Source of the DNA: Antedon mediterranea
Taxonomy: Eukaryota; Animalia; Echinodermata
Direction of reading: 5' to 3'
Assembly (NCBI RefSeq): GCF_964355755.1
Contig: NC_092671.1
Location: 8,494,001-8,558,000 of the forward strand
DNA: 64,000 nt
Under the pieces are notes generated by a model that was not told the origin of the DNA, did not search any database, and saw only the letters and a program-made list of their open reading frames with translations. Positions 10,068 through 61,850 of this stretch are shown here, piece after piece. The position numbers and the translations under genes were made by a program. Numbering within the stretch: the first letter of the stretch is position 1; each line of letters begins with the position of its first letter.

Positions 10068-10219
10068 AAGCCCTGCCGTTTTTACTTTCACACACGCAGA
10101 CCGTTTAAAAACACTACGACATGAAGTCCCGGTGCGACCTAGAGGAAGAGCGTTATTATCTCGCTTACATCTACCTAACCACTGGTGGCTTGATTTCATA
10201 TCTGCCAACCAGACCTAGG

Positions 10220-17135: not shown

Positions 17136-17965
17136 GGGCCTGTTTCTGCTGCAACTGCTCAAAATACGGTATAAAAATACGGTATAAAATACGGTATTTT
17201 TTATACCGTATTTTTTAGTACCCCGTTTCTGCTAACAATACTTCTTGGGTGGTCGTGTTAAATTTCATCTTTTTTACCCAAATTGCCATTCATTTATTTG
17301 ATCGATAATTAAAAGTCGCAATAAAGGAAGTTTTACGTCTCACTTTCAACAGCCTAGCCCTAGTGATAGAGATGTTGTGAGAGCACAGAAAACATCGTAA
17401 TGGGGACAATTAATTCGTTCCCTCCCCGAGTTATTGTATTTTGCAATGTTGTACTGCTTTCGCAGGCTCTTCAGCTTTGAGTTTACTTGCTTTGGAGACA
17501 AGTTTATTCCATACTCCTGCTTTATTTTTTTAGAAATGTCTTTATAAATGTGGTTGTCCCTTTTATTACCTTTTAGTTGGTCAGACATTTTAGCTTCCCC
17601 ACACACATTTATTTAGTAAAACTGTGACGTATTCGCTCCACATTTTCGCCGAATATATCTATAGGCCTACATGTGTGTAAAGCAGCTAACAGCGACAGAA
17701 AATAAAAACACGAATGGTGACCTTTTGTCATGGAAAAAAAAAATACGGTATTTTTTATTGGCAGCAGAAACGGGTACAAAAAATACGGTATAAATTTGTA
17801 AATACCGTATTTTATCCACAAATTTTGTGGGGAAAATACGGTATACAAAATACGGTATATTTTTTATGAGCGCAGTTTCTGCTGCCAAAAATATACCGTA
17901 TATATACGGTATTCAAAAAATACCGTATAATATACGGTATTTAGTTGGCAGCAGAAACAGGGCCA
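17136..17965 (-). mobile_element. Non-autonomous PIF/Harbinger-like element with a degenerate Myb/SANT-like ORF
   Basis: TIRs GG(G/C)CCTGTTTCTGCTGC(C)AACT at both ends and about 13 subterminal ATACGGTAT/ATACCGTAT repeats. The internal frameshifted ORF 17346-17643 reads MWSE...VW/GE...IYKDISKKI...KQVNSKLKSLRKQY...SGRERINCPHYD. Confidence 0.8.
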
Positions 17966-26605: not shown

Positions 26606-26788
26606 AGCGTGGTTCCCACTAGCGACGCAACACAAGGACGTAACGCAACGCAAGTGAATTGACCAATCACAAGCGATGGCTTATTCGCTTGTGATTGCTA
26701 ACTGTCTATAACTTCGCTTGTCATTGGTTAAAACGCTTGCGTTGCGTTTACGTCCTTGCGTTACGTTCTAGTGGGAACCAAGCTTTAG
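26606..26788. mobile_element. Palindromic MITE (Harbinger-like ends)
   Basis: TAAAGC(G/T)TGGTTCCCACTAG ... CTAGTGGGAACCAAGCTTTA, almost fully palindromic. Confidence 0.85.
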
Positions 26789-35211: not shown

Positions 35212-36790
35212 TTACAGACCACACATTGTCATCTTACATATATCACATTTGAAAATCTTTATTCCGTTGTGTTCCACTTTCATGTGATCTTCACAAGTCT
35301 TTAAGGGTTTACCGTGAAAACTACGCATGTGTCGTTGAAAAGTTTCTTCAGTCAAACAATACTTATTTCTACACATAGAACAACGTATTTTTGTTCCTTT
35401 TTTAGCTGCAACTTTGCCCTTGCGATTTCTCCCGTCCGTTCTTTCTTTAACTGGTACTGCAAGTTTATTCTTGTGGCGTATCATAATATGATTATCTAAC
35501 TTGAATTTGTTTTCGAAATTCCTTCTGCACGCAGGCCAATCACATTGAAATGGCTTCGTTTCGTCATGCACGAGTTTCATGTGTCTTTTCAGTTTTTCTG
35601 CATTACTTAAGACTTTCTGGCAAACATTGCACTCCACTTCTTTGTGAACAGAGTTCATGTGCTTTTTAAAAATGACTCTATTCAGAAAGACTTCTTCACA
35701 TAGTGAACAAATTAACTCGTTTTTTTCCGGCACTGCATCTCTGTGTGTTTTCATATGGATATCTAACAGTGATTTATTTTCGAAAATGTCATCGCATCTA
35801 TAACATCTCAGCTTATGCTTATAATCTTTAGGTGTCGTATCTATGTGCATGCGTGTCATATGCGTTTTAAGACATCCAGCACTTAGACAAGTTTTACCAC
35901 AAATGTCACAAGTTTTAGGATCTTTGCGAAATTTATAGCCCCTTCTTTTCCCCTTTGCAGATTGAGAATGAGTGACAAGATGATGATCTAGATCTGATAA
36001 CATTCGAAATGAATGTCCACATTTTTTACAGTCGAAAGGCAAATTGTCCATTTTATGAACATCATTCTGATGACATTTTACCTGAAACTCTGTTTTGAAT
36101 AACTTTTTGCACACGACGCACTCAAAAGAAATTCCTGCATCTTTATTGGCATGCATTTCCAAGTGGTATTTATAGAGAACGGGCTGATAGAAAACCGAAA
36201 CAGGCTTACATATTGTACAGGTTAATATCCGTTTCGGGTGATACTTTATAATATGATCATGCAGTTCTATAGAATTTGTAAATCCAGCAGAAGTACAAAA
36301 ACGACAAGGTTTAAAAGAAAGTTTAGTTTTAATACTTTGGCAAGTATGACCAATCAATGAATTCTCGGTGGCAAACGTTTTCCGACATTTTTCGCAATTG
36401 AACAAGGAAGGTCTCCTTCCCGTGTCAGCGTCATGCCCAACACTATCACTATCAACATAACTTTTAGAGGTACTAGGGAGATGCTCATTACATATTTTTG
36501 CTTTGTAACTTTTCTGTATAGCGTCTTTAGCTTGGCGTGACTTTTTTTTTTTTCTAGTCAATCCTAGAGGTTGAATCATTTTTCTTTGATTCTTTTCAAC
36601 CAACCTACCATCATCACGAACATCATAGGTAACTACATTTGCATTTATGGCGCAATCAGGTTCAACTACGTGTTTCACCATTCGACTGCGGTTACATATG
36701 GCAACATGCTTTTTGTATTTCTTTCTATTCAGCCATTCACCACCACAGGATGCACAATTGAACGTGTAGTCTGCCTTTTCAACGTCATCC
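35212..36790 (-). CDS. C2H2 zinc-finger protein, large exon with about 12 fingers; upstream exons unresolved
   Basis: Repeated CxxC...HxxxH motifs. Phase-2 acceptor tattttctag|G at 36791/36790. The last finger is cut short (CDICKMTMCGL*) at a possible donor gtaag near 35215. Confidence 0.85.
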
Positions 36791-37596
36791 CTAGAAAATA
36801 TCAAATACAACGAGTAAAATGATTGATACACAAGCCACACCCGATATCTTTGGTTAGTTAATGAAAATTGAGTTAAACCCCATTACAAATGACTCCAAGA
36901 ACCTTGGTAGATTTAGACTGTTTTACGGTTAAATTGCCAATTTGAAGAGAGACATTTATCAGCCTTTGCATATAGTGACGGTACGCCACAATAAAAAATT
37001 CAGCTGTCATCATTAAGATATAACATGTTACTGGACATCCATTGCCTCACTTTGATGATTTGTGAGGATGGCTAACTATTTGCTTGGTTCAATATGTGCG
37101 CACACTTGCAATCAATAGTATACGTGTTGCAGCACCACTCAACGAATTGGATAGACTTACAACACATAATTTGAGATGGTTTGTAACAGCGTTACAAAAC
37201 TTCTGAATAACAAATTCAATAAATACAACTGAGACAGAAAGTAAATATTTTACATTACTGTACTTATATATAATTAATGTTCTTTGCCTGATTTGTTTAT
37301 ATATATATAATTATATATATATATAAATCCAAAGGCAAATTACTGAAAAAAATGACAATGCTGTGGGTATCAGTGGCTGGATCTCAATGGAGATACAAAA
37401 AAAAAAGCGAAAAGCTAAATCAAAACGATAAAGTAAACAGCCAGAAAAGTTAGCAGAGCTTTCGGGCAACACTAGCCCTTCATCTCATTGAGCTTGTGCA
37501 CTCTTTGTGTTCATAATCAGTGTACCATGTCCCGCATACCTGGCTCAGCCTATATATTGTGCCAGTTCTGCGGTACATTTCATTTCGAAACCTGAG

Positions 37597-37641
37597 CTGC
37601 ACTGACGAGATCTAATAAGCTCGAAACAGTACTGTCTGCAG
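37597..37641 (+). ncRNA. Minimal type I hammerhead ribozyme
   Basis: Stem I CTGCA/TGCAG, core CTGACGA, short stem II, GAAA, stem III C-AGTACT-G with a palindromic loop, and a GTC cleavage triplet ending at 37636. Confidence 0.78.
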
Positions 37642-37665
37642 ATTGGATATATATATATCCAATCT

Positions 37666-37990
37666 ACTCAAGCATATAGTAGCGCAAACAAAAAATGCAA
37701 CCTCTGCCTCAAAGAGAAATTATTTATCATCCGCCACCCTGAATTATCGACATTAAACAAACGTAACGAACTTGTGTCCGCCTGCCGGCACAGAAAGAAA
37801 GCATTGTTACATAACAGCTGACATTCCAAAACATATCACCTGTAAATGCTAATTCTACAAGTAAATGCGCTTATAAGCAACGTTGTAATTGATTGTTCTC
37901 ATTATAGTCTCCTGATGAGTGAGTTGCACGACTCACAAAACAAGCCTGTAGAGAACTGTAGAACTGTAGTTTTTACTTCTTTTCCAGACT
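37666..37990 (+). mobile_element. Penelope-like retroelement 3' remnant (GIY-YIG C-terminus plus pLTR)
   Basis: AYSSANKKCNLCLKEKLFIIRHPELSTLNKRNELVSACRHRKKALL* (37666-37821), followed by a hammerhead-like motif and (TA)n. Confidence 0.8.
37903..37960 (+). ncRNA. Hammerhead ribozyme-like motif with a core mutation
   Basis: TCTC-CTGATGA-GTGAGT(TGCACG)ACTCAC-AAAAC-AAGCCT-GTA-GAGA; the GAAA box reads AAAA. Confidence 0.65.
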
Positions 37991-38055
37991 TAACGTATAT
38001 TTTAGCTTTACTTTACCGTATTGAGCACTTTTTAGACGGTTACATTGAACTGAAC

Positions 38056-38086
<31 letters not shown>

Positions 38087-38280
38087 ATGTTCTTTGCCTA
38101 GTGCGTTTATATATATATATATATAAATCCAAAGGCAAATTACTGAAAAAAATGACAATGCTGTGGGTATATATATATATATATATATATATAAACACAA
38201 CAGGCATAGAAATAAATTCCAAACCGCCCGGTGATACACTGAAAATTATTTCATTTATTTTTTAAACGATATATATATAT

Positions 38281-38465
38281 GAAAAGAACGTTGAGTTTCT
38301 CGACGTTCCGATCAATATACTTTGATCGTCCTCAGGAGTAAGATTAAGAAGGATCAAAGTATATTGATCAAAATGTCGAGAAACTCAACATTCTTTCCAG
38401 AACTATATATACGTGGTGTACCGCATAACAACATTTGATTTCGCCATGCAAAACTTCAAACAATA
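38281..38465. repeat. Inverted pair of pLTR-like sequences, each with a degenerate minimal hammerhead motif
   Basis: Minus strand 38299-38338 reads CTC-CTGAGGA-CGATCAA(AGTATA)TTGATCG-GAAC-GTC-GAG. A mirror copy lies on the plus strand at 38345-38400. Confidence 0.6.
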
Positions 38466-38762
38466 TGTAAAATCATTATGTAATATAAGTTTGTAATTCC
38501 TGTATTATTTTAAAAACTAAATTTAATGAAAATGAGCCAGTGAAGAAAGGTCAGATTATTTGAAATTGTAGCCTACATAGCACAATGAAACAACTGATAT
38601 TTTTTAAGAATTCTTATTTTATAATGTTAAATTATCTTTAAAAATAATTTACCAACTTAAATTGTTTACATGAATAATTGGGTCTACCATATTACATCAT
38701 AATCACTTTAACAGTAACTGTAAGAAACAGAACATTTGAGTGAAAACATAAATTGCGAATTG

Positions 38763-39155
38763 TTATGTCTTCCTTCTTCGATGTTTCTTTGGAAGTACCA
38801 CCGTTAGGTGTACCATATTACATCGCAACCGATTAAAAGGCATGCACGTCTGGGGGTTATATTTGTTCTGGTGTATTTCCATGTGAATATCAAATACCGA
38901 TTTCTCTCCGAATGTCATCTTACATTTACCACATTTGAACAAATTGTTGTGTTTCGTGTTCATTTTAAAAAACAAAGAGTTTCACCACAAAGTTCTTAAA
39001 AGTCATTTGCATTTAATACTAGTACTTCTTCTTTGTTAACCACCATTCGACTGCGGTTACATATGGCAACATGTTCCTTGAATTTTTTTTCATTCAACCA
39101 TTCACCACCACAGGATGCACATTTTAATATGTCATAGAATGTATCAACGTCAACC
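38763..39155 (-). pseudogene. Degenerate, internally deleted duplicate of the 35-36 kb zinc-finger exon
   Basis: Same acceptor context and near-identical CASCGGEWLN..K.HVAICNRSRMV. A stop at 38996 follows, then a finger KCGKCKMTFGEKSVFDIHMEIH resembling the C-terminal end of the long exon. Confidence 0.7.
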
Positions 39156-39502
39156 CTAGAAAATATTAAATACAACGTATAAAATGCCTTGATACTAACT
39201 GATAAACTCCACAAACGTGCCATCGACCATTTGATTAGCTGAAAACTAAATTAAATGCCTTGATACACAACACAATCCATACCGATGTAAACCATATATT
39301 TTGATGAGCTACAGTAACGTCATTGTTTTATTTCGCCAGCAATGGCATATGGACATTTCAGACATGCAAAAAATGGAAACGCATAACAAATAATCAAATA
39401 TACATTAAATAAATAAATCCTTTAATTTAATGTAGAATTAACACATATTTTACTGATTCGAATTACAATGAGGCTGCATTTTTCTTCAATCTATAATGTT
39501 AA

Positions 39503-39853
39503 AGATGTATTGTCCCCCTGAAAAAATAATTCTAACAAAATTTGTTGTTGAATATTCCATTTTAGTGCAACATAATAGTTATCCACTTTGACGAAAAATT
39601 GGATCTAAAAAAAAAATGTATTTACCTGAAAAAAAAATGTAATTTAGAGCAAAATATGATCAAATTGGTTGCCAGCCAATGGATTTTTGGTTGAAATTTA
39701 CCATTTATTTTGTCATTTTATAAGTGAAAACATGATTTTTTTTCATTTAATTTTCTATGGAAGTGATTAACTTTATTAAAACTACAAAATAACATATTCA
39801 AAGTCTGATTTAATTAATCTTTATTTTTCATGTTTTTGGGGGACAATACATCT
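39503..39853. mobile_element. MITE with TTAA TSD (Kolobok-like AG termini)
   Basis: TTAA|AGATGTATTGTCCCCC ... GGGGGACAATACATCT|TTAA. Confidence 0.85.
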
Positions 39854-39944
39854 TTAACATTTCATGATTATTTCAAATAAAGCAGTGGATTTTCTGTACA
39901 ACACAAAATCACAAAATAACGGTTTGACGCCCATATAGAGTATA

Positions 39945-40509
39945 ATACCCCTTTCACACCAAAACTCCGGAGTGTCTCCGGAGACACCCCGGGGTTTATG
40001 ACCATTCAAAACGTCGAGAAACTCCGGAGATACCCTTTCACACCAACCTAGCAACACCAGGGTTCATAAAATAAAATTGTAAATGTCGCCCTCTAGTTTG
40101 TTTGTTTACATAGCGACGATCGTTAGAATCATTTTAATTAATAATATTTTAAATTTAAAAATTACTTTCAAAGTCTCAGAAGTAATATAATGTTTTATTG
40201 ATACTACATATTATTTTCTAGACCCGCTATATATTTTGTACAAATATTTAAAGTATTTTGAAATAAAACTAAAGCAATGAGTGATCGTGTGAGGATGACC
40301 TTTTGACCCGAAACACTCCGGATTTGATGTTGGTACCTTTCACACCAAAACACCGGGGTGTCCCCGCAGTTCGCTCTCCGGAGAATGTTCAGCTGTTCAA
40401 CCCCGCAGTTTTAAACTCCGGAGTTGCTTGATTTTACCTTTCACACCAAACAGCGGGGCGTCAACTCCGGGGTGTCTCCGGAGTTTTGCTTTTGGTGTGA
40501 AAGGGGTAT
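39945..40509. mobile_element. MITE with ATACCCCTTTCACACCAAAA TIRs and many ACTCCGGAG subterminal repeats
   Basis: Perfect 20-bp TIRs flanked by TA, with internal copies of CCTTTCACACCAA. Confidence 0.85.
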
Positions 40510-40923
40510 TATATATATATGGTCTTCAAACCATTATTTTGCGAAATTATATATTTCACAAAATTGTATATTTTACATTGTATACCTATATTATAGACAT
40601 ACAATGCAGATTTTATTATAATGATGATCACACTGAAAATGTTTTAAATATATATCAACAATTAGGGTATAAAATAATGTGTCTCTGCTGGAGGGCCTAC
40701 TCTGGCCAAATTGCATTGTTCAATCTACATCTACTGGAACAATGTGTTATTAATTATATAGTATTAGAATATTGATAATAAGTTTTGCAGTACACAAGGT
40801 AATATTCTTTTTAAAAAGTAAGTACGTACGATCGAACCCAAACTTACCTACTTCCCTTTTTAAAGGAAGTTAGTACTTGTAATATCACAATGTTACTACA
40901 GTAAATTAGAATACATTATTAAA

Positions 40924-43900
40924 TCAGCTATTAGTATTTCCATCCTTGTTACTTGTGCACATATTTGGATCAAAGTTTCTTCTTAAAGCTGCTAACATTG
41001 TTTGAAATTCTTTAGATCTCCGCTCCTCGGCAAGCCTTTTATCTTCTAAATCTTGTTTCATAAAATCCAATAAGCCAGTCATATACCTTTCTTCTGCTTT
41101 CTCTAGCCTCTTTTCTTGCCTTCTTTTGCTTGCTGAAGACGTAAATGTTCTAGTATTTCTCCAAGCTATCCCATCCATTTTTCTAGTCAAAATTAGAAAT
41201 GACTTTTCTGACAAAAGAGTTTCTTTCTCTCTTTTTTCATCTAAAATAAATGAAAATAAATACAGTTTAATTAAGCAGAATGTTAATAATACTAATTTCA
41301 AAAGTATTTTGAATAATTTCAAAAGTAGTTTTAATCAAGTGCAATTGTAAACAAATATTTAAGAAAAAATTAATTAACCTTTGTTATCTTGAAATTGCTG
41401 CTTAGACCTTTCTAGGAGACTTCTAAGAACAATAGATTCTTTCTCACCCTCTCTTGATACATTTTGTTTGTTACCAGGTTTGGTGTTGTTATGTCCAAGT
41501 TGCTGCAACAATAACGGTTGATCTTTGCTGCCATGTTGAAAGTTTTCAAGTTTGTTTTCTGGTTGTAAGTTTAGAAACTGCTGAATGTCTTGTTTCTGTA
41601 AACTGAAATGTCCTTCCTCGTTTTCATCTACATTAAATTGCTGGCAAAACATATGTTGCTGATCTTTCTCTTGTATTTTCCCATGTTGCTGTATGTTGAC
41701 AGATTTTTGTTTATTTTTTTGAAAATCTATTAAAAAACAGAAACAAAATATCATACAAATAATTAGATGTTCATAAGCTATATATTTCAACTAAATAAAT
41801 ACTTTTGAGATGGCAAAGTTTATAAATAACATAATTCAACAGCAAGTATTGGTAACATGAACAATAAAGGTTTTTTAAACATACCCTCATCTTTAAAAGA
41901 ACTACTGACATTTTCCTCTAATGAGTTGTCTAGCGAAGAATTTAATAGTTCCTTCATTTTATAGTAAAATGGAAATGTTGCCAAGACGTCTGTTTCTGAC
42001 GGTGGACCAGTATCATTAAAAACCTTGTATGCTCTCTTCAGATCTTTTATTTTACGCTGAATCTGAATCCAATTTCTATAAAAAGGACCGCATTCTGCCA
42101 ACCGTCTTGCCATTTCAACAAATGTACCCTTCTTAGTTTTATGCGAGTCTAATACACTTTTGATTTCAGGTTGAGCCCAAATGTCTAAAAGATGGTAGAC
42201 TTCTATATCTGCCCAATTGAATGCTCTTCTTCTATTTAAAGTTTGATCTTGCTTAGTTTCCATTTGGTTTCTATTCATCTCTTCAGCTTCATTTTTATTT
42301 TCATTGACCCAATTTTGCTGAATGTTTCCATGTTCTCTCATATGTTGCCACTTATTGTCATTTTTCTCCTCTTCTTTGCTATTAGGTTGCATGGTGGTAT
42401 GTTGGTTTCTGTTATCAAGTGATTTACTACACATAATCTGCTCTTCAATATCATCAAACTCCTTTATTTCATCAAAAACTTCTCCATCGTTAGGATATTG
42501 AGAACTCACTTCATCACTGAGTACAAAGGAAAGCTCAAAACCTACTTCTATAAAAAACAAGACATTGTTATACTACAAAAGCATTAATTGCTTACCTCTA
42601 ACCCATAGTTAAATTTTCAAAATTAGAAAATAATTTTTGTTACAAATGCCTGGTTCTGTGAGGTTTTTGGATATATACAAATGGTACAAATACGTCAGGT
42701 GATGAAATAGAAAATATACTTACTATCATCTCCAACTGACTCATCAACATTCTCCGGAAAATATGAAGAGTATGGTTTTATTAAACCTTTCATTTTGTAG
42801 TAAAATGGAAAAGTTCTAAAGATTTCAACTTCCGATGGTGGACCAGCATCATTGAAAACCTTGTACGCTCTTCTTAGATCTTTTATTTTGCGCTGAATCT
42901 GAATCCAATTTCTATCATAAGGACCACAGTCTGCCAACCGTCTAGCAATTTCAACAAAGGTACCTTTCTTTGTTTCATGTGAGTCTATTACCCTTTTGAT
43001 TTCTGGTTCACACCAAATGTTTAAAAGGTGGTTGACTTCTTTTTCTGTCCAAAGAATTCGTTTTTGTTTTGAAGTCTTTGAATCATCTTCTCTCATCTCA
43101 TTACTTTCATCCACAATTTGATCTTCCTGATTTTCTTCTTTATTGTCTGGTTCAGTATTTTCCTGCTGTTTGTCAAGTAGCTGTTTACTATCTAAAAGCT
43201 TTTCATTTTCAAGCTCTTCATTTTCATCAAAAACTTCTTCGTCTCCGCCCTGATAATTTTCTTCATCACTTAAGATGTGAGAGTGCTCTAAACCTGAAAT
43301 CATAATTTAATTGTAGTTTTGTTATGTGGTGGTACACATTTTGTTTTAGATTCCAAAAAAAATTTGGAACACCCTCAATGTTAATACCACAGTCAGAGGT
43401 TGATTACTGCCCTCACCCATCTATTTAGCTTGCCCTTTAAAGACTAATAACTAATAAAAGTATGATGATTTAGTAAATGTTTCAAAAATGTTTAGATTTT
43501 TTTTGTTTTTAAGAACAAAGGTAATTAGCTAGTCAGTTTTAATATTACAAACATGTACAGAACATAAAAAGAAACTTACTATCATCTTCAATGAAAGTAT
43601 CAACATTGTCAGGAACATCTGAAGAGAATTTCATTAAACCTTTCATTTTGTAGTAAAATGGAAACGTTCTAAAGATTTCAACTTCCGATGGTGGACCAGC
43701 TTCACTGAAAACCTTGAACGTTCTTCTTAGATCTTTTATTTTACGCTGAATCTGAATCCAATTTCTATCATAAGGACCACAGTCTGCCAACCGTCTTGCA
43801 ATTTTAACAAATGTACCTTTCTTTGCTTCATTTGATTCTATTACTCTTTTGATATCAGGTTCACACCAAATGTCTAAAAGAAGGTGCACTTCTTTTTCTG

Positions 43901-46900
43901 TCCAATTGACTCTCTTCTGTTTTGAGAGATCTTCTTTCATTTTACTACTTTCAAGTTGGTTAACATCATTCTGGTGTAACTGCGGACTTAACTGTTTACA
44001 ATCTAAAAGGATCACTTCACTATCAATCTCTTCATTTTCATCCAAAATATCATCCTCCTGATATGGATAACTGTCTTCATCACTTAAAGCTGAAATCACA
44101 ATTTAATTTTGATTTATTTATTACAATAATACAACTTATCTACAGTAGTGCTTTCTGTCAAACAAAGCACACAAAAACAATATACTTTACAAATTCCGGA
44201 ACACAACCTACCATCATTCATTGAAGTATTGGCATTGTCTTTTATGCTGTCCGATACATCTGCTAAAGGCTTCTTTATCAACTCTTTCATTTTGAAGTAA
44301 AATGGAAAAACTTTCACAATTTCAGCTTCTGGTCTATCCTGATATAGCTTGTATAATCTCCTCAGGTCTTTTACTTTGTGCTGGATCTGAATCCAGTTTC
44401 TAATATAAGGACCACGATCTCCTAACCTTTTGGCCATTTCAGCCCAAGCCTTTGTTTTGTTTTTATGAGTTGACTCTGTAATGTGTTTTATATCTGGTTC
44501 ACTCCAGACGTCTATAAGGTGATTGATTTCAGTATCTCTCCAATTGATATCTCGTTTTCTTTTATGAGTAGACTCCACTACACTCGAATCAGTCAATAGC
44601 TGCTCTTCAATCTCGCTATTATCAAATGGTTGCTCAATCTCTGGATGCTGATCAAATGTTTCATCTTCATCTTGGCCAAATTCTTCATCACTCACAATAT
44701 CTTCAAAATCTGAAATTATATGGTAAATGTTGCAAATATACAAATATAAATTAACATTAAAAAATTATAAATAAAACAAAAGCTGCAGTTCTGTTTTTAT
44801 TTTTGATTTAAGACATTTAAGAAGATAGTAAATCTGGATAACTAAATCAATAATCATTGGTCAATCATTGGTTACCAAGGCTACTATTGTAAATTAAATA
44901 AAACAATAGTTACACTAAATAAAAATAGATTAAAAAAAAACAATACCTTCTTCTTCTACAGCAGTTCCGGTGTTATCCAGAACATCCGATGATGATTGCT
45001 TAAATAATTCTTGGAGTTTGTAATAAAATGGAAACACCCTCATAATTTCAAATTCTGATTTCGGATTCTCATTACAGAGCCTAAAGGATTGTCTCAAACC
45101 TTTAATTTTAACCTGAACTTGCATCCATGTTCGCTTATGAGGACTGCAAGTCAACCGCTTGGCAATTTCATTCCAGGCCCACTTTTTACTGCTCTTTCGA
45201 TGGGATTCAATTACCCTCCTTATTTTAGGTTCACTCCAAATTTCTATCAGATTATAGGTTTCGGTATCTGACCACCTTGACGCCCTTCTCTTTTTATTTA
45301 AAGATCTTCTTTCAAGTTGGTCCTTATTGGCTAATGGTGCTTCATCTTGACGCTGCGTAACAAAGCTTGCGCTCTCAATGTTTGTGTTTCTTCTCAATCT
45401 ATCAAACTCATTATCTGTATCCGATTGTTGTTCGTCCTCATCGAGGAAACTTTCTTCATCACTTAGAATACAAGAATCTGCGTCAAAAAATATAAAACTA
45501 ATGTAAATATTAAATAACACAGTATTTCATAATATTGCCAAGAACTCATTTTATTTGTGAAGGATAATAAAAGATCAGAGTTTAAAATTACGAGTAATTA
45601 ACAAAACGATATAGAAAATTAAAAACTTACCATCGTCGTCATCATCTTGTACCAGACTCTTGATATTTTCTTCTAATGAGCTGTTACCAAGTACATCCGA
45701 GAGGGACTTCTTCATTAAATTTTGAATTTTGTGATAAAATGGAAATACCTTCAAGACTTCAGTTTCTGAACGTGGACCAGAATAATGACAAATCTTGTAT
45801 GCTGCCCTCAGGTCTTTAACTTTTTGCTTGACTTGCTTCCAGGTCTTATTATGACATCTTGAAGATAACCTTTGTGCAATTTCAGCCCAAACAAATTGTT
45901 TACTAACATTTTTACTTGATTCAGTTATACTCCTTATTTCAGGTTGGCTCCAGATTTCAATGAGGTCATTGATTTCAAAATCTGTCCAGTAGGAAGTCAT
46001 TTTTCTTTTTGAAATTAAGTTAGCATTATCCTCATCAATATTGTCATCAGCTTTACTTAAAAATAAAGCTTGTACTTCTTTTGCAATTATGGCGCTAGTT
46101 TCACACTGATTACCATTTTTGCTTGTATTCTGAACTTCTGTACCGTTATCATCTTCTATTACTTCACATTCTGTACTTTCATCATTATCTTTTTGTTCAG
46201 TAAGTGTTTCTTCTAGAAAAACCAGAAATATTAGCTTCAATAGATGCTCAAACTAATCAAACATATTTCTTTCTTAAGAACAACTAATAATCAGAATAAA
46301 ATTCAACTCCCTGTAATAATCAGAATAAAATTCAACTCCCTGTAATAATCACATCTACTGCACAGTAATATGCCTAACAATACAATATATTCCACTGTTT
46401 CAATATACGTCTTTACTTTGAAATCTGTAATTAACTATAAGGCCAACCCTAAACCAAAATTGTTTTCAGCCTGCAAGTACTAATGTATGTTCATCACTAG
46501 GTTTCAGATTATGTCAGTGTCACTGTCACTACTTCCCTAATGAAGCATACAAATGCCAAATGTCACCTAATACTATAGTTTTTTCCCATTAGGTCAACTT
46601 ACCTAAGTTTTCTTCTAACAAAGCAATTTCTTTGGCTGATGAGTCCACCATCAATTCGTGGATTCTGGTGCTGAATTGGCGATTTATAGTGAAGAAAGGC
46701 CCTCTGTACATTTGTAGTAAGTTCTTGATTTTAGAGCGAATTTCAATTTCAGGTCTCTCAGTGTGTCCAAGCTCAACCAACCTTAAGCGAATTTTGTTCC
46801 AAACATCTTTTGTATTTTTGTTGGATGTTAATTCATTTTTTATTTCAGACTCACTCCAAATATCTATAAGGTGATGAGTTTCATCATCTGACCATGTAGC

Positions 46901-46918
46901 AGCCTCCTTCTTCGCCAT
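40924..46918 (-). CDS. Multi-Myb/SANT-like (trihelix, MSANTD/Harbinger-type) protein: 9 exons, 7 DNA-binding domains, Q-rich linker, C-terminal coiled coil, about 1444 aa
   Basis: Exons 46603-46918, 45631-46212, 44947-45477, 44212-44709, 43580-44089, 42724-43293, 41885-42547, 41379-41726 and 40924-41240. Every intron is GT-AG phase 1 and the joined CDS of 4335 nt is open. Exons 1-7 each carry W.D.E...L(L/I).IW....K(I/V)K.L, ending in FPFYxK in exons 2-7. Confidence 0.88.
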
Positions 46919-47699
46919 GTTTGTTAGGCTAGGCCTAGTTTAGAATCAAATTACAGGACGTTCTGTTATTGATCATAGGTAGGTTGTTTGTTTTGTGCCG
47001 ACATGTGTTGTTATAACGCGGTTACTGACGACGCGACGGATTAGGTCAACATTGTCAATTTTTCTAGCTCCAATCAATACAGCTAACAAAAAACCTTTGC
47101 ACTATACACACTTTTAAAAATGAGATAAAATATTATTTATCTTGTGTTTATCTGTTGATATAGTGTTAAAGTGATGCAACATATTGATCTCTAAATACAG
47201 TACTTTTCGTCAATCTAAATTGTGTTATTCAAATGATATACATCAAAATGCAACCTTGGTTTAATTAATTTCACTGAGAGACATGATAAAATAAAAAGTT
47301 GTAGAACGACCAAGTGTCATTCATTTATCACTACTGTACATTACAAGCTACATTTAAGAGTATACAGTACTATTTAAAATCACATTTGTATTATTGGATT
47401 GTTAAAACTTAAAATTTAAAAATATAGTGTACAGTACTTGTACTTGTGTAGTGAGTTTTCAACAGAATTAAAATGATGTCATTTGTTTAAATGTCTACAA
47501 TACAAAGCAAGCCTGTACAGTTTGAACAAGCAGGTAAATGAAAGACAAAGAGTTATTCTGATTTTAGTGACATTCTCATTATAAACCACATTACAATCAT
47601 GAAGTTCCTTCAGACTGAATGAATGGACCCTGAGAAAATTTAATTAGTTTATACATGATTGCACTAATATGAAAAAACAAACAGCTAATAACTATATTT

Positions 47700-50436
47700 T
47701 TATACTAATACCATTTTTTACATCTGTATAATGTAACAACTTGTAACCATGTTTGCAAAGAGTGAATACAATGTTCATGCCGACGAGAGGCCTGTTCTTT
47801 TCTTCTGAGATGTTGTACTTTGCATGTGTTGCCCTGGAATTATTTTAACTGACCACAGTACACTAATAATTAAATAGCGCCCCCAACTATGGAATGACAA
47901 TACTTTCTCCAGAGATTTCTCAGGGTTTGCGTATGTGTGTATGAAAGTGTGTAATAAATTGAGAGATTAAACAAGTTGTAACAATTAACGCAGATGTGGA
48001 AAGAGTATTAGTAACACTTTATATAAGGAAAATAAATCTTACTCTGACTGTCTACTGGTTGATGTACTAGGAGTTGAATCACTACAAAAAAAAATAAAAT
48101 AGAATTACTATACACTAAATTAATATGTTCACTACATTAATGGATATAATTACAATCGTAACCATGGCAGTCATATTTTACATAAGATTACGGCAAATAT
48201 AAATATTGATGGGAAACCATGTAATCCGTTATTAAAATTGCAGTGTCTCATAATGTGACTTCAGCTCTTTCCAAACGAGTGTTTCACACAACGCAACATC
48301 AACACTCGTTCTGATTGGTGTGAATAAAAAAACAAAAAACTCTGCAGCTCTATAGTAATCAGTAATTAGGCCCCCTCTAACTAAAACATCATTATGTAGT
48401 TGGTTCATACTGTTATACATCATTTAATTAGCAAGTAAGTTTAAAGCCTAAAATATATTACCTTTCTTTAGTTGTTTTCTGGTTTGAAGTGGTAGTGATA
48501 CTGAAATTAATTAAATAAATAAATTAGCAATATTTGCCTATTAATAGACTGTATGACATGACTCCAACATCTTTTTAATACTTCTGGTTTGATAGCTTTT
48601 GTTGATTCATTCTCTGATGCAATGTATTTCTATATTCACACTTAGATTACAAAAGATTTATAAAATCAAACAGAAATCTTAATATTAGATTCTTGTGTCC
48701 TAAAACTATTTCATGAAACTTACGATTCTTCAGGTGTTTGCTGCGTTTTACACATCTTGGAATAATAACTGAAATAATAATAAATGTATTATTAGAGTGA
48801 TGACTATAGTATCAAGTGAAAGGCATGAGTTCAAGTTTCGGTCTGTGCTATATTCATTGTATCCTTTACTCGAATTGCCTCATTCTAAGAATGGGATGTA
48901 TACATGTTAAAGAACATGATACATTACTCAAAAAGAGTAGATCACTGATGTAGATGCTCTGATCTTGCTAGTTGCTAGTTGTTGTGAGTCCATACTGTAG
49001 AGGGCCTAATCTACATTTCCTCATTTTCCAGATACAGAATCACAGCATATAGGCAACACATATTGGTGAAAATAAAACAAACAAGGCCTTAGCATCCAAC
49101 TTCAAAAGTTGTGAATATTACAGAATTTTATATCAACATATTGATTTTGCAATGCAAAACTTCATACAATATATTACAAAAATTGTACTTTTATTTACAA
49201 ATTTATATAAAATTCTTTTTATAGCTATACTTACGAGTTTAACAGAAATTCTGTTAACTCTTCATGTGTGTTAAAATTTAGATTTTTCCTAACTTTCAGC
49301 CACCTTTTATACTGTTCACCAAACATTGCTTTTGCAGCATCGCCTCGTTTCACATAGTAATAACTATATAGAAAAAAAATATTGATTAAAAATTATTTAA
49401 TAATTAATATAATGCTTTTTACTTGGGGTACTCTAGGACTCTCTCATCTTCTCCTCTTCTTCCATCCGACACTATTGAGTGTGTCATTACAGCTTCTTTT
49501 GCTGTACCCCGAGTATCGCACATTTGTGCTTGTTGGTATAGGACAACGTACAGGTTATAAACAGTGTTAATACTTGCACAGATTTCAAGTCCTTATTCAA
49601 GAAGATTCAAGTTTTACTTGATCCAGTACCATGATCAAGGAGAGCGTTGAGCATGTACAGTATGGTTGTTGGCACCTCCACTTGACTCAAATTCAGAAAT
49701 CAAAATGGCCTATTAGAGAGACAATACAAACCTCCCACGATGGCCTAGGAAACTGGCCATTTAAAAAAATGTAAACATTATAACCCAACCAACTTGGAAC
49801 CTACCAATCTATTAATCCTTCTGCTACTTTTACATCATTGAATTTAAATTCAGACGCAATGTTTTTCCATCTAGGCAGTTGATTACCTATGTTTAATAAT
49901 GGACTAGATCTATTTCTATAGTCCATTTCTTCCTTCTTGTCTTTGTTATTGTCTTTCTTATTTCCTCTTGATTTTTTCCTATACGTGTTAATTTCTGACA
50001 AGATTTTTTTTTTCTTCGTTGCAGTTGCTCCGTCTTGTCCAGTTTTAGAACATCGTTTATTCTTTCTTTTGAGACTTGTAATTTTTTGTGGTTCTTCATT
50101 GTTGACAGTCACAAATTGTCCCCAAGTGTTTTCATCTGTATCGTCTACAGGTTCAGTTTTTATTCGAATAATCTTCCCTTCTATATCAATAAGCGAGTGT
50201 GCTGGATCCTCAATTGCCTCTTCATTACTTTCATTCTCTGACATTGTATTTTCACATTCTTTTTTTATTTCCAACATGTTATTAATTGATATGTTACAAC
50301 CAAGTCCTAGTAGCTGTTGGTGCATCCTGGAAGTATTTGAGTCGCTTTCTGGTTCGACATGTTGGTTATCCATACTGCAAGAAGTCGATTGATATTCTGC
50401 ATAGCTATCATCTTCATTTTCTATTTTTATGTCCAT
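47700..50436 (-). CDS. Uncharacterised acidic nuclear protein with IKIE/IKTE motifs, a small helical domain and phase-2 micro-exons
   Basis: Candidate exons 49805-50436, 49235-49363 (YYYVKRGDAAKAMFGEQYKRWLKVRKNLNFNTHEELTEFLLNS), 48724-48768, 48462-48500, 48043-48081 and a tentative last exon 47700-47833. All introns are GT-AG phase 2. A 5' UTR acceptor lies at 50461. Confidence 0.65.
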
Positions 50437-52832
50437 CTTACTGGCATTCAGCTACTGTACCCTGAAAGGAAAAAAAACGAGGCCATCAAAAAAGTTTTCT
50501 ATCAGAACAGTTGATCATGGTCCTTAAATTTCCTGGCCTTACAGTATTCACGGTTTGTGAAGACATATTAGCAATATATTATTAGACCTATATTACTATG
50601 AGGAATCTAATTTAAGATCACAAACTATATTTAATGTAAAAATAATACTATATGGTCCTATTGCGATAACTTTTTTCGTCTTTAAATGGTTAAATTAAAA
50701 ATAAGTCGATTCGAATAATTATAGCGGCCCCGCTATAAATCTCAAAATGCATTGCGCCCGGATTGATATTATTTATATCAAGTTTTGTTTTTCTTCTGTA
50801 ATTCACTCACTTTTCGATCGATCACAAGGCCAAAACAAATGGAAGATTCCTAACTTTTCAGCGAAAATACCAGGTTTTCCCCAACTTGTATCACTTTTTA
50901 TCATAATTTACCATAAAAACATACATTTAAGACAAGGAATGACCTGGTTTAATGTTTTTAAAGTAATAATATACAGTACAGTATATGTATTATTTTTACA
51001 AAACGTCACTGGTTGGAGGTACACACCTAATGGGTGACAGTGGCTTAGGCTGCTTTTGTGCTTTCCTGGCAGCTAATGACTATGATTTTATATTTTCTTT
51101 TGCGTTGTGTTTGTTTAATTTGTTGATTTATATTATATATATTATTATTTTGTAAAATGTATCTTTTGCCTGAATAAATAATAATAATAAATTGTAGGGA
51201 AGGTGTATTTATTAAATATATCATGGATCAAACATAATTATACAATTTGTAATTGTAAAATTAACATAGTATTAGTAATGCAACAAGTGCACTATTAATT
51301 TTTCGAATGGAATAATGTATACCACGGAGGGCACGTAATAATTAATATGCAACCACGCCTGGTGTTCCATACTAAAAACATGCAGCCAAACGTCAAGCCT
51401 GGTGGCGATTTTTTTTTCCGTACGAGAGTTCCTCCATCGGTTCGTTTCGGACTCAATCGACTCTTCGGTAAGCCACCAATGCTCACTGATGCGTGACAGA
51501 CAGCAACCACAAGACACAAAACGTGAGCAGCTTTTTTGCACGAGTGACAGATTTATACATACTACTACTAGGCCTAGGCCTATACTATACTCACTGTAAA
51601 TATAATAATAAATATTAATAGTAGTACTGAACCTCATTGTAATAATAATAATAGGCCTAAAATTGTAATAATATAATACTGTATAGGCAGTAACACTAAC
51701 AGATATTTTTATCAAGAAAATTACAATTTTCTTCAGGTTTTTAAGTGTAAACATTTGAAAAATTGTATACATTACATAGTAGGCCTGTAGTAGTAGTAAC
51801 ATGTATTCTTGTAAGTTGTAATGTATAGAAACACATGCTTGCTTATAAAGCGTTTAATATTGTGTTAATTTAATAATTATTGATATCTTGGGCGGTGGAA
51901 ATTTTGAATTAAAATGAACAAATTTTTTGTAAAATTAATTTCAGAAACCATAATAAAAAAAATAAAATCAAGAATATGGAATACAGAAAACCGATCTTCT
52001 TGATAAGATGATAGTATCACATATAAGCTTCCTGGAAAATTTGTTATTATTAAATGTATTTGTAGTCGTGTCAGTACCGTAAAATTTAATATTTTTTACT
52101 TTGCATGTATTTTTTATGATTTTCCAAATTACATACACATAATAAACAATAATATTAGTTGTAGGCCTATAACTTAATTAAAACTATGGAACGATCTCCC
52201 TGTTAAAATAAAACTTTCTGTATCTTTAATTACTCTTTAAAAATCTGTAAAACGCTACCTATTAGCCATTTAAACAACATACTTTTGTTATGCTCTATAT
52301 TTTTTCTCCTTCGTTTTTGACTTATATTTTGTTTATTGTTTTATCATGCTTTTTCTTTTATGTATTTCTGCATACTTGTTTTTTAGGGGCCCTCATGAGA
52401 CAAGCTTATGCTTCTAGTGCGGGCCCCAGTTGTTGTTGTCATAATAATAACTGAATAAATGTGTATGAACTATGAAAACTCCAAAATGGCCTATTATTAA
52501 AAGTTTGAAATCTTTATTTTTCATGATTAGGGATAATACGTACATCTTTAACGTAAAATTTCCATCAGCTTACAATATAAATATTAATTTAATAATATTA
52601 TTTTAAAAGGTATAAAAAAGATACACTGTGCATGTAGGAATTCCTACTACTGTACATTAAATCATTTTAAATTCAGAATACATTGCATAAAGCTTGGCTA
52701 GCCATAGGCTAGCTACAATACCATAAAAAGAGCATCTCGTTCGTTCAACTTCAAAAAATAATATCTGATACGACCTACTATTGGGTCGTAGACCTAAGTA
52801 TCTTTAATATGCTATTGCTATTGGGTTCTTAA

Positions 52833-53696
52833 CCCTTTCACTGCGTATACCCGGTACTACCGGGTATAAACAAACGTCGTTGAAGTGCGTATACCCGGTA
52901 ATACCGGGTATGGGCAAAACAATGATTTAATCGTATTTGCCTATAATATATAGCACCCTCTATATTTGTTCGATGAACTTGAATATTTTTGCAAGTCATT
53001 AAAAAAATTTTCCAGCAAAAAAACGGCCCTCTATAGCTGTATTATTGTCTTGAAAATCATGCGCCCTCTATAGTTATATTATATATAGTATAGTGTATAT
53101 ACTGTAATAGTATTCTATCTTGGAAAGTTGTTTTGAGTAGCGTAATGGCGGCCATTTTGAAAGTAACCAAAATTTACCAGCCCCAATAGGGCAACATTGT
53201 GTTTATCACAACATTACACGCAAAAAAAAAAAATTCTGAAACAATAGTTAGTTTTGTACTATAGTGAATTTTTGGAAAATGTCATTATTTTCACGATTTT
53301 GCCCCAAAACTTTGATTTGTGCATAATTTTTATAAATAATAAAAATAATTCAATTTTTTTTAATATTTTTATTTGTTATACGTATCTTTATCAATATCCA
53401 GTTGGAGAAACGTATTCCATAAGAATTTCTTATAGAAAATATAGTTTTTATCATTGATTCGATAAAAAACACGAAATCCAAAATACCTGTAATGACGTCA
53501 CATGACGTAATCAATAATAATGCAAATTACATTTTTTTTATACCTAACTGTAGACTAACCCTTTGCCCATCACACACCACAAAAATAATTATACAATTAT
53601 CTCAATTAGTATTTTTTTGCAATTTATTAAAATACCATGTTTTTCTTAAATATACATTACGCACAGAGGTGGGAATAATGCTCCGCAGTGAAAGGG
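52833..53696. mobile_element. piggyBac-like MITE nested in the 6-kb element
   Basis: TTAA|CCCTTTCACTGCG ... CGCAGTGAAAGGG|TTAA, with internal subterminal TGCGTATACCCGGTA repeats. Confidence 0.88.
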
Positions 53697-53805
53697 TTAA
53701 TGTAATTACTAAGTAGGCCTAGTATTTATAGATTCATTTTACTATTGTGAGAGCCTGTGTGTGAAAGTAAGCTCGCGGTTTGTACTGTAAATGTAAATTT
53801 TATTA

Positions 53806-57321: not shown

Positions 57322-58329
57322 TTATGTTGTCACGCATCAGTGAGCTGACTTTACCGAATACCGAAGAGAGTCGATTGAGTCCGAAACGAACCGATGGAGG
57401 AACTCTCGTACGGCAAAAAAAATCGCAGCCTGGTGCGCCTAGCCTAGGCCTACTATTTTTTGTTGGAAGAACGCTCGCGCCTCCTATCTTGAGACAGACA
57501 ATTAAATTTGCAGTTCTAGTTGTTAGGTCAGTTGTGCAGCCAAGAAACTAGCCTAGCTATTTTATAGAAAATCAACAAATAAATGTTAATAAATCTATTT
57601 TAAACAACCTAATATAACAACACGTATTTACATAATTGTCTGAATAGCACTTTAATAAGTATATAATGCGTTTATTACCTGTTATTTTGTCCTTTTATTG
57701 CGAGTCTTTGTGCACCTCTTTCGCTCAATTCTCCTTCAGATTTTACATGAAAGCGCCCTCTCACGTTGTGTGTAGTGTCTTTTTTGCAGAAGGTATAGGC
57801 CAAATAGGTAAATTAATAATGTTTTTTTTTTTAAACAAACAGTAATCAAAACACAGAAAATATAACTGCTGTATATACATCAATAATTTAAATAAACTTT
57901 AAAGTTCTAATTTAATTCTCTATTAAAAATAGTCACAGAAGTGTGTACCATAATATCTTTATGGTACCATACGCTACAAAACAGAACTGTATATCATAGG
58001 ATAGCCAATAGATATCATGTCATCATACTCGTACACAATTTTTAAATAATAAGATTTTGGTAGGATAGGATATAATAGACAGACATGCATTTTTAACTTG
58101 AGCTCCTGTGAATATTGTTCCGTCGGGCTCTCATATGGGAGCTTTAAAGTGCTGGAGAACGGAGCTGGTGTAACTATTTCCTCCTCTTTTCTTTATTTTT
58201 TGGTTATTTTAGGATATTTTATGGATCCTTTGTGTAAAACGCTTAAAAACATTGTATTAGGTGCTATAAGACTCCATTATTATTAAATACATGTTATGAT
58301 ACAAATAAATATCATATTTCTACTAGAAA

Positions 58330-61300: not shown

Positions 61301-61713
61301 TATACAGTGCTTTCTTTTACTTTAGGACGTTTCACTTGTGTTTTTGAGACCCTTACAGAAGTACTTGGCTCTTCTCTTCTTGATCTGTTAGAATCTGTGT
61401 TAGAACTGCCACTTTTGCTCTCACGAGAACATGCACGAGAATGGTTATCAATTATTATCTGTATTCTCTGTAAATAATAAAAGAACTATAGTAGATTGTA
61501 CCATGTACAGAATCATTTTTCCATTTACGAAAACTGTGTTATAATGGATCCAATAAAAATCGTCAAAATTCATTTATGTTTTGCTAAAAATAGTGCAAAC
61601 TTTCTTACTGCGGCCATTCGTTTCAATTGTAGATCACTAAGTGCCATTTTCTTTTCTTTGGTTTGCTTTGGTGTTATCTTCCTTGCTTTTTCTTCGTCCA
61701 TCTTAGTTTGCAT
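58330..61713 (-). CDS. C2H2 zinc-finger protein with acidic 45-aa repeat linker and about 8 C-terminal fingers
   Basis: Main exon 58330-60906 (phase-0 acceptor) with a canonical HTGEKPYEC linker. Upstream phase-0 exons at 61067-61171, 61321-61467 and 61609-61713. Confidence 0.88.
59460..60300 (-). repeat. Coding minisatellite, 135-bp (45-aa) unit, about 6 copies
   Basis: Unit QEV(N/D)VD.T.SNSEENGNNCK.DKDHDNQMDGIEV.LDSTTGK.DL; DNA anchor recurs near 59490, 59625, 59760, 59895, 60030 and 60165. Confidence 0.95.
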
Positions 61714-61850
61714 CTGTGTAAGACATGACAATCATACAGTAAATGAAAACAATTTTTTTCAGATGATGTTTTATTATACAGTATATTCAATGGTTTAATC
61801 AAATGAATCAGGGGCAGCCTTGTCACTAATGATCATGGCTACAGTATTTC
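60750..61850. repeat. About 550-bp tandem duplication copying two exon segments and an intron of the zinc-finger gene
   Basis: 60750-61300 is near-identical to 61305-61850. Confidence 0.92.

What the first reader, a model, noticed from the sequence alone, without database searches (positions are those of the whole stretch)
40924..46918. Seven-domain Myb/SANT (trihelix) gene built as a modular array of phase-1 exons
Seen: seven consecutive exons each encode one Myb/SANT-like domain. Exons 2-7 precede it with an acidic linker (often starting SDE) and a basic patch. A Q-rich exon and a coiled-coil exon follow. All eight introns are phase 1 and all internal exons are multiples of 3, so any subset can be skipped in frame. 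Known: Harbinger transposons encode a single Myb/SANT-like protein that binds subterminal repeats and recruits the transposase, and domesticated relatives (NAIF1, MSANTD family, ZSCAN20/29) usually carry only one or two such domains. Inference: this is a transposon-derived DNA-binding module amplified by exon duplication into a poly-reader, analogous to zinc-finger arrays. It may be combinatorially spliced and may recognise transposon ends. No transposase ORF or bounding TIRs were seen around it.
Basis: partly seen in the sequence, partly recalled or inferred. Interest (0 to 1): 0.9.

Follow-up and report, generated by a model that had tools for sequence, protein, structure and literature searches.

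The report
Feather star seven-Myb DNA-binding array gene
A feather star gene, intact and spliced, strings together seven copies of a transposon-type DNA-binding domain, one per exon, and likely acts as a multi-armed chromatin regulator; arrays of five to ten such domains also occur in a brittle star, fishes, reptiles and an insect, so this is one case of a recurring, little-studied design and not a unique one.

Summary
Seven consecutive exons each encode one PF13837 Myb/SANT domain, all eight introns are phase 1, and one run's contigs show all eight junctions. The gene is longer than reported. Five phase-2 exons upstream give a 1,744-aa protein identical to RefSeq XP_071942172.1 (Antedon mediterranea). 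The array grew by internal duplication, with the oldest copy at the 5' end. Its source was probably a single-domain crinoid gene: two such proteins share its acidic linker motif and C-terminal helical tail. The domains are under purifying selection. The design is not unique: 18 other proteins among the best 150 profile hits carry 5-10 domains, some behind KRAB or TINF2_N. No exon skipping was seen, and phase symmetry follows from copying one exon. Linkers are 66-121 aa and acidic, so it likely binds several separate sites rather than reading one long sequence like zinc fingers. No transposase or bounding repeats were found; binding to transposon ends is untested. The module may sit inside a C2H2 zinc-finger gene as a captured alternative 3' end (inferred). 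Verdict: new variant of a known kind, interest 0.5.

The parts
49805..50464 (-). Exon 1 of the coding model (ATG at 50436; acidic then basic, no Pfam family); phase-2 donor
   Evidence: matches P0001 residues 1-210; X1 contig covers exactly 49805-50464 (record 6)
49235..49363 (-). Exon 2, phase 2-2; short motif that I recall as resembling the N-terminus of ZNF692/ZNF653/ZFP91 (recalled, not confirmed by any search)
   Evidence: no Pfam hit at E<=1; Atlas hits only under 0.8
48724..48768 (-). Exon 3, 45 nt, phase 2-2
48462..48500 (-). Exon 4, 39 nt, phase 2-2
48043..48081 (-). Exon 5, 39 nt, phase 2-2; spliced to exon 6
   Evidence: 21-nt loose end of an X1 contig at 46934 maps uniquely to 48043
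46603..46934 (-). Exon 6: acceptor 16 nt before an internal ATG (46918) whose MAK...W start lines up with the start of single-domain relative P0056; Myb domain 1 (most diverged, net charge 0)
45631..46212 (-). Exon 7: acidic linker + Myb domain 2, phase 1-1
44947..45477 (-). Exon 8: LSDEE linker + Myb domain 3, phase 1-1
44212..44709 (-). Exon 9: linker + Myb domain 4, phase 1-1
43580..44089 (-). Exon 10: linker + Myb domain 5, phase 1-1
42724..43293 (-). Exon 11: linker + Myb domain 6 (84% identical to domain 5, youngest pair), phase 1-1
41885..42547 (-). Exon 12: linker + Myb domain 7, phase 1-1
41379..41726 (-). Exon 13: Q-rich low-complexity linker, phase 1-1
40848..41240 (-). Exon 14: charged helical, coiled-coil-like tail homologous to the C-termini of crinoid single-domain proteins P0056 and P0062; stop at 40924-40926; 3' UTR donor 76 nt after the stop
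   Evidence: phmmer E 4.3e-13 and 1e-6 among 171 proteins
38996..39155 (-). Degenerate short copy of a zinc-finger exon (phase-2 acceptor) into which the Myb gene's 3' UTR splices
   Evidence: 26-nt loose end at 40847 maps uniquely to 39129-39154; 83% identical over 158 nt to the long exon's start
35212..36790 (-). Long C2H2 zinc-finger exon with a phase-2 acceptor; candidate alternative 3' end for exons 1-5 (820 codons in frame; junction not observed)
   Evidence: covered by an X1 contig (record 1)

Best explanation
This is an intact, spliced feather-star gene whose 1,744-aa product carries seven trihelix-type Myb/SANT domains, likely built by repeated duplication of one linker-plus-domain exon of a single-domain crinoid gene, and it likely works as a multivalent DNA-binding chromatin regulator. 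Shown: exon structure, splicing, domain identity, purifying selection, a ladder of duplication with the oldest copies at the 5' end, and homology of linker motif and C-terminal tail to single-domain crinoid proteins. Inferred: (1) The parent was a host gene of the type Myb - acidic linker - coiled coil, itself probably domesticated from a Harbinger ORF2. (2) A first internal duplication joined the linker to a second Myb start and made a symmetric phase-1 exon, which unequal crossing-over then copied. (3) An acceptor just before the old ATG let upstream exons capture the module. (4) Each basic domain inserts its recognition helix into a short DNA motif. The 66-121-aa acidic linkers let the domains hold several separate copies of a motif, which raises avidity on clustered or repeated sites; domains 5-7 share one recognition helix. 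(5) The helical tail recruits a partner or a second copy, as BESS does in Drosophila HMR.
For: PF13837 in 7 of 7 exons. 8 of 8 junctions in X1 and 0 in X2-X4. The model equals RefSeq XP_071942172.1. The AlphaFold model of domain 6 has pLDDT 86; best matches are Sap1 (Z 10.3, rmsd 3.0, 91 aligned), GT-1 (Z 8.5, rmsd 4.5, 77) and Zeste (Z 7.8, rmsd 2.5, 69). Foldseek's first hit is GT-1, probability 0.98 but E 0.76. dN/dS is 0.18-0.47 in 16 of 21 domain pairs, 5 saturated. Coding differences between individuals are 7 silent to 2 replacement in domains against 5 to 12 outside, Fisher p 0.038 (26 coding rows of 40 shown, 11 more not shown). Domains 2-7 form one clade, 100/93, nested d2,(d3,(d4,(d7,(d5,d6)))). 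P0056 (Anneissia japonica, 319 aa) and P0062 (Antedon, 303 aa, on another contig) share the LSD[ED] motif and the tail; no other of 171 proteins scored under E 0.08 to the tail. Domains 2-7 have net charge +6 to +13 and linkers -16 to -28.
Against: No DNA target, localisation or partner was measured. Domain 1 has net charge 0 and a long branch, so it may not bind DNA. The grouping with crinoid single-domain proteins in the tree is weak (81/80), and AU tests rejected none of 6 groupings tried, p 0.11-0.61. Expression rests on one run whose RNA status is the tool's guess, and no contig spans the gene. Intron positions of P0056 and P0062 could not be read, so step 2 is inference. Harbinger ancestry is not shown by any transposon-linked relative.
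Confidence: 0.65

Rival explanations
1. The Myb array is a captured alternative 3' module inside a C2H2 zinc-finger gene. Exons 1-5 are the zinc-finger gene's own N-terminus and splice either to the Myb array or to the zinc-finger exon at 36790, so one promoter makes two kinds of DNA-binding protein. This is compatible with the best explanation and concerns the locus structure.
For: Exons 1-5 end in phase 2, and both zinc-finger acceptors (39155, 36790) are phase 2, giving 347 and 820 in-frame codons. The acceptor of exon 6 lies 16 nt before the old ATG, as in 8 of 9 host-transposase fusions (bioRxiv 10.1101/2020.05.07.082677, passages). The Myb 3' UTR splices into the 39155 exon. The long zinc-finger ORF has no in-frame ATG until 37 codons after its acceptor.
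Against: The exon 5 to zinc-finger junction was not seen: one search was swamped by repeats, with 241 joints not shown. No protein under 959 aa sharing residues 1-300 was found among 2,170 candidates. The X1 contig over exon 1 carries 254 further nt (exons 2-5 total 252), which fits either a branch or a coverage gap. A phase match occurs by chance about one time in three.
Confidence: 0.4
2. One reading: exons are skipped combinatorially to give a code of specificities, and the protein reads transposon ends such as MITE subterminal repeats.
For: All Myb exons 7-12 are phase 1-1. Harbinger3_DR Myb protein binds a 9-bp subterminal motif (PMC9710019, passage). MITEs with palindromic subterminal repeats lie in the window. 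Three identical recognition helices would suit repeated motifs.
Against: Only consecutive junctions were seen, 8 of 8 joints listed. The RefSeq cluster holds 1 protein. Symmetry follows from duplicating one exon. At least four unrelated TIR elements lie in this window, so proximity means little. The window's own transposon-borne Myb domain is distant from the array.
Confidence: 0.15
3. The array is an old gene shared with other array-bearing animals, for example the 10-domain Amphiura protein, and its copies look lineage-specific only because of gene conversion within each array.
For: The AU test does not reject one clade of the Antedon array, the Amphiura array and P0017 (p 0.28), nor joins with the alligator, teleost or insect arrays (p 0.11-0.51).
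Against: The Amphiura protein and other arrays score no better than E 0.08 to the C-terminal tail. The best per-domain BLAST hits of all seven domains are single-domain proteins. The Antedon copies are 30-84% identical in a graded ladder, and introns share only one 32-nt match, which is not homogenisation.
Confidence: 0.12
4. A decaying tandem run of transposon exons or of separate small genes, with no selected function as one protein.
For: The stop lies 76 nt upstream of a 3' UTR junction, a feature that can trigger nonsense-mediated decay (rule recalled). No orthologue of the full array was found.
Against: An open frame of 1,744 codons over 14 exons, all eight array junctions spliced, dN/dS under 0.5, and a deficit of replacement differences in the domains.
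Confidence: 0.05

Closest known systems
Domesticated Harbinger Myb-like genes (NAIF1, MSANTD1-4; plant HDP2, ALP2, SANT1-4)
   Same: Trihelix Myb/SANT domain, immobile host gene, negative selection; described as DNA- and protein-binding, several in chromatin complexes (PMC9392472 sections 5 part 1 and 14; PMC5339849 passages).
   Different: The MSANTD proteins are 275-559 aa, with one domain stated for MSANTD2; this protein has seven domains, one per exon, plus captured 5' exons. No cognate Harbinger family was identified here.
Crinoid single-domain Myb/coiled-coil proteins XP_033096920.1 (Anneissia japonica) and XP_071961113.1 (Antedon mediterranea), both uncharacterised
   Same: Same domain subtype, LSD[ED] acidic linker motif and C-terminal tail.
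   Different: One domain, about 310 aa, no N-terminal extension; they are 48% identical to each other.
Uncharacterised multi-PF13837 proteins: Amphiura XP_072035543.1 (10 domains), Alligator KRAB + 8, Anolis KRAB + 7, teleost TINF2_N + 6-8 (zgc:113263), Hemicordylus SCAN + 4, Bacillus rossius 6
   Same: Tandem PF13837 domains separated by long low-complexity linkers.
   Different: Different N-terminal modules, no homologous tail, and each array's copies cluster together in the tree. Their exon structures could not be read.
Drosophila HMR (four MADF domains + BESS)
   Same: Several Myb/SANT-like domains plus a C-terminal interaction module; one domain atypically charged; loss de-represses transposons (PMC8412352 passages). 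Best functional analogue.
   Different: MADF rather than PF13837 (MADF scores at most 16.6 bits, cut-off 22); no BESS hit; no homology claimed.
Host-transposase fusion genes such as KRABINER (Cosby et al., bioRxiv 10.1101/2020.05.07.082677)
   Same: Transposon-type DNA-binding module spliced behind host exons through an acceptor just before its ORF, possibly inside a zinc-finger gene.
   Different: The captured unit is an ORF2-type Myb gene, probably already domesticated, not a transposase; that paper's main text has 0 occurrences of Harbinger or Myb.

Membership tests
Myb/SANT-like trihelix domain (PF13837) | Score above Pfam gathering cut-off | tested here: met
   7 of 7 exons, 42.1-50.5 bits against 27; 7 stretches in P0001
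Myb/SANT-like trihelix domain (PF13837) | Three-helix fold with long recognition helix and conserved aromatic core | tested here: met
   Domain 6 only: pLDDT 86; Sap1 Z 10.3, GT-1 Z 8.5, Zeste Z 7.8; two tryptophans invariant in 7 of 7
Myb/SANT-like trihelix domain (PF13837) | Sequence-specific DNA binding | not testable with these tools
   Net positive charge in 6 of 7 domains is only compatible with it
Mobile Harbinger element (ORF2) | Adjacent DDE transposase ORF | tested here: not met
   No transposase family in 142 ORFs of at least 62 aa or the long ORFs; shorter fragments not scanned
Mobile Harbinger element (ORF2) | Bounding terminal inverted repeats | tested here: not met
   0 inverted 13-mer pairs with at least 4 G/C between 36901-40923 and 46935-52000
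Domesticated Harbinger Myb genes (MSANTD/NAIF1 type) | Significant similarity to, and grouping with, a named Harbinger ORF2 | tested here: inconclusive
   No Repbase here; the window's TIR-element domain scores 21.8 bits and falls elsewhere in the tree, AU p 0.48; metagenome scans found no linked transposase
Domesticated Harbinger Myb genes (MSANTD/NAIF1 type) | Negative selection | tested here: met
   dN/dS 0.18-0.47 in 16 unsaturated pairs of 21; Fisher p 0.038
Domesticated Harbinger Myb genes (MSANTD/NAIF1 type) | Same syntenic position across species | not testable with these tools
   No genome held; no eukaryote genomes offered
Host-transposon fusion gene | Splice acceptor immediately upstream of the captured ORF | tested here: met
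   Acceptor 16 nt before ATG 46918, junction seen in X1
Host-transposon fusion gene | Parental host transcript coexists (exons 1-5 joined to the zinc-finger exon) | tested here: inconclusive
   In frame but junction not seen; no such protein found
Zinc-finger-like contiguous reader array | Short fixed linkers allowing one continuous site to be read | tested here: not met
   Linkers 66-121 aa, net charge -16 to -28
MADF-BESS proteins (HMR type) | MADF domains above cut-off and a BESS domain | tested here: not met
   MADF 14.5-16.6 bits in 3 of 7 exons, cut-off 22; no BESS at E<=1

The most novel reading that the evidence does not exclude
Animals have repeatedly turned a transposon-type Myb/SANT domain into arrays of 5-10 copies that take the place of zinc-finger arrays behind KRAB, SCAN, TINF2_N or, here, behind the shared first exons of a zinc-finger gene. 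In the feather star one locus would switch by alternative splicing between a zinc-finger reader and a seven-armed Myb reader that polices repeated DNA. This would be an undescribed parallel to KRAB zinc-finger defence, built from transposon parts.
Probability: 0.2. Interest if true: 0.8.

Novelty: new variant of a known kind. Interest (0 to 1): 0.5.

Why it matters
The gene shows, in one locus, how a single transposon-type DNA-binding domain becomes a repeated module: a likely parent gene, a graded ladder of exon copies, and captured 5' exons. The wider result is that such arrays recur in a brittle star, teleosts, crocodilians, lizards and a stick insect, mostly annotated only as uncharacterised, some behind KRAB or SCAN. 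My ten paper searches listed no paper on them as a class. Teleost members (annotated zgc:113263) suggest a zebrafish gene on which target and function can be tested directly. If the arrays bind repeats, they add a second family of rapidly evolving repeat readers beside tandem zinc fingers.

Tried and rejected
No window genome was held, so copy number, paralogues and synteny were not examined. Word-based protein searches found only P0001 itself (1 of 950 candidates; 1 of 4,599) or nothing (0 of 2,170); the profile search showed that the first two had missed many relatives. The run search said 'no RNA holder listed' on record; X1 is a guess. The second read-laying was swamped by repeats and settled nothing about exon 5 to zinc-finger splicing; contig depths were not used to rank exons. 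Metagenome scans for a transposon-linked relative: 0 of 147 stretches and 1 of 181 (L001, matching only residues 103-155, the low-complexity linker; disregarded, not examined further). PDB sequence search: best GT-1 at E 0.065, not significant. AU tests had no power on about 97 columns. A test that the shared start of the two zinc-finger exons is under selection failed (3 differences in silent codons, 19 in replacement codons); the short copy is taken as degenerate. Two copies of the C-terminal tail were folded: no answer, score 0.00. The recalled ZNF692-like motif was not confirmed by Pfam, the Atlas (scores under 0.8) or papers. Searches of earlier findings by place, by words and by sequence gave nothing. 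The MITE at 39941-40513 was considered as a target and dropped for lack of any link beyond proximity.


Full report
Observation. On the minus strand, seven consecutive ORFs each match Pfam PF13837 above cut-off. Contigs of run X1, from a different study than the other four listed runs, skip exactly these 8 introns, while X2-X4 read through them. X1 is only guessed to be RNA, three junctions have 30 or fewer letters on one side, and no contig spans the gene. A retrocopy in DNA is not formally excluded, but no run that reads through the introns shows the joined form.

The gene is larger than reported. A protein search with exon 11 returned one protein, RefSeq XP_071942172.1 of Antedon mediterranea, 1,744 aa. 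It maps to 14 exons from 50436 to 40924 and is reproduced exactly. The five extra introns are all phase 2. X1 supports the exon 5-6 junction by a 21-nt loose end and covers exon 1.

Selection and fold. Between domains, dN/dS is 0.18-0.47 in 16 of 21 pairs; 5 are saturated. Among 26 coding differences in the 40 rows shown of 51, domains have 7 silent and 2 replacement changes and the rest 5 and 12 (Fisher p 0.038). Domain 6 folds confidently (pLDDT 86) and matches Sap1, GT-1 and Zeste best. Domains 2-7 are basic, domain 1 is neutral, and linkers are 66-121 aa and strongly acidic. Domains 5-7 share a nearly identical recognition helix, whereas 1-4 differ.

Origin. A profile of the seven domains found 1,632 proteins at E<=0.001 among 1.84 billion representatives; the best 150 were returned. 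The best per-domain BLAST hits are single-domain proteins. Two of them, P0056 (Anneissia japonica) and P0062 (Antedon, another contig), also share the LSD[ED] linker motif and the C-terminal tail (E 4.3e-13 and 1e-6; next best 0.087 among 171 proteins). P0056 begins at the point equivalent to ATG 46918. In a tree of 88 domains chosen from 365 (one from the window's TIR element added), domains 2-7 form a clade (100/93) with a ladder from d2 to the d5-d6 pair. Domain 1 joins weakly, and the crinoid single-domain proteins are next at 81/80. I infer growth by internal duplication of a Myb-linker-tail parent. Uniform phase is then a by-product, not evidence of regulated skipping, and X1 shows only consecutive junctions.

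The architecture recurs. Of the best 150 hits, 18 besides P0001 have 5-10 domains (ranking favours multi-domain proteins, so this is not a frequency). Of 34 scanned against Pfam, 7 have seven or more. Of 20 looked up, arrays were named from Amphiura (10 domains), alligators (KRAB + 8), Anolis (KRAB + 7), several teleosts (5-8 domains, some with TINF2_N, one annotated zgc:113263), Hemicordylus (SCAN + 4) and a stick insect (6). Each of 10 arrays tested sits on one side of a branch (all 365 domains by FastTree). That shows expansion or homogenisation within lineages. Independent origin is likely but not proven, since AU tests rejected none of six groupings.

Transposon link. No transposase or bounding repeats flank the gene. 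An 829-bp element at 17136-17964 with inverted ends, 3-bp flanking duplications and palindromic subterminal repeats carries a PF13837 fragment. This looks like a deleted Harbinger (family traits recalled) and shows that such elements exist in this genome, but its domain is distant from the array (21.8 bits). Ancestry from a Harbinger ORF2 therefore rests on established knowledge of the family (PMC9392472: abstract, section 5 part 1 of 2 and section 14; PMC9710019 and PMC5339849: passages), not on a test here.

Locus context. The gene lies between C2H2 zinc-finger exons on the same strand. Its 3' UTR splices, 76 nt after the stop, into a degenerate zinc-finger exon at 39155. That exon and the intact one at 36790 have phase-2 acceptors that fit exons 1-5 in frame. 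This resembles capture of a transposon module inside a zinc-finger gene (bioRxiv 10.1101/2020.05.07.082677, passages), but the decisive junction was not seen and no such protein was found. I give it 0.4.

Mechanism. The most likely function is a nuclear regulator that binds several separate short motifs at once and recruits partners through its helical tail, like the four-MADF protein HMR (PMC8412352, passages). All functional steps are inferred. Targets may be repeats, but nothing here points to transposon ends specifically.

Literature. Ten searches (listings and abstract starts) showed no paper on this gene or on multi-PF13837 arrays as a class. The searches were few, several were poorly targeted, and subscription journals are not covered. 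PMC10547256 (passages) has no mention of Myb or TINF2. No supplements were read; domain tables there could bear on the novelty claim. One earlier AI note on a sawshark locus describes the same kind of chaining; I did not test it.

Verdict. A real, expressed, selected gene; a new variant of a known kind; interest 0.5, carried mainly by the recurrence of undescribed arrays and the possible shared locus with a zinc-finger gene.

Noticed in passing
window 17136-17964: 829-bp element with inverted ends, 3-bp flanking duplication, 13 of the window's 15 TACCGTAT/ATACGGTA motifs and a broken PF13837 fragment (50.2 bits): likely a non-autonomous Harbinger deletion derivative.
   Followed up: partly
window 39941-40513: High-copy MITE-like element with long inverted ends and all 6 copies in the window of the palindrome CTCCGGAG, lying in the Myb gene's 3' UTR intron.
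   Followed up: partly
window 39495-39861, about 52830-53700, 26602-26788, 38269-38410: Further TIR or palindromic elements.
   Followed up: no
window 9411-10214 (-): Myogenic regulatory factor (MyoD-type) exon with Basic and HLH domains; useful synteny anchor.
   Followed up: no
window 58330-61847 (-): C2H2 zinc-finger gene with an internal 135-nt tandem repeat in its ORF and a tandemly duplicated 5' segment (60748-61303 and 61304-61847, 89% identical).
   Followed up: no
window 38766-39155 (-): Degenerate duplicate of the zinc-finger exon at 36790, transcribed in X1 and used as a 3' UTR exon of the Myb gene.
   Followed up: partly
proteins P0003, P0013 (alligator, anole): KRAB domain followed by 7-8 Myb/SANT domains and no zinc fingers detected: a KRAB repressor built on a Myb array.
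   Followed up: partly
proteins P0004, P0006, P0007, P0011, P0012, P0029, P0030, P0038: TINF2_N domain joined to 3-8 Myb/SANT domains, in four cases also to C2H2 fingers; the four looked up are teleost proteins.
   Followed up: no
proteins P0028, P0031: Two or three Myb/SANT domains in front of SAICAR synthetase and AIR carboxylase domains; could be a gene-model fusion.
   Followed up: no
window 51405-51498 and 57328-57426: Inverted pair of an 87%-identical GC-richer segment near the likely 5' end of the Myb gene.
   Followed up: no
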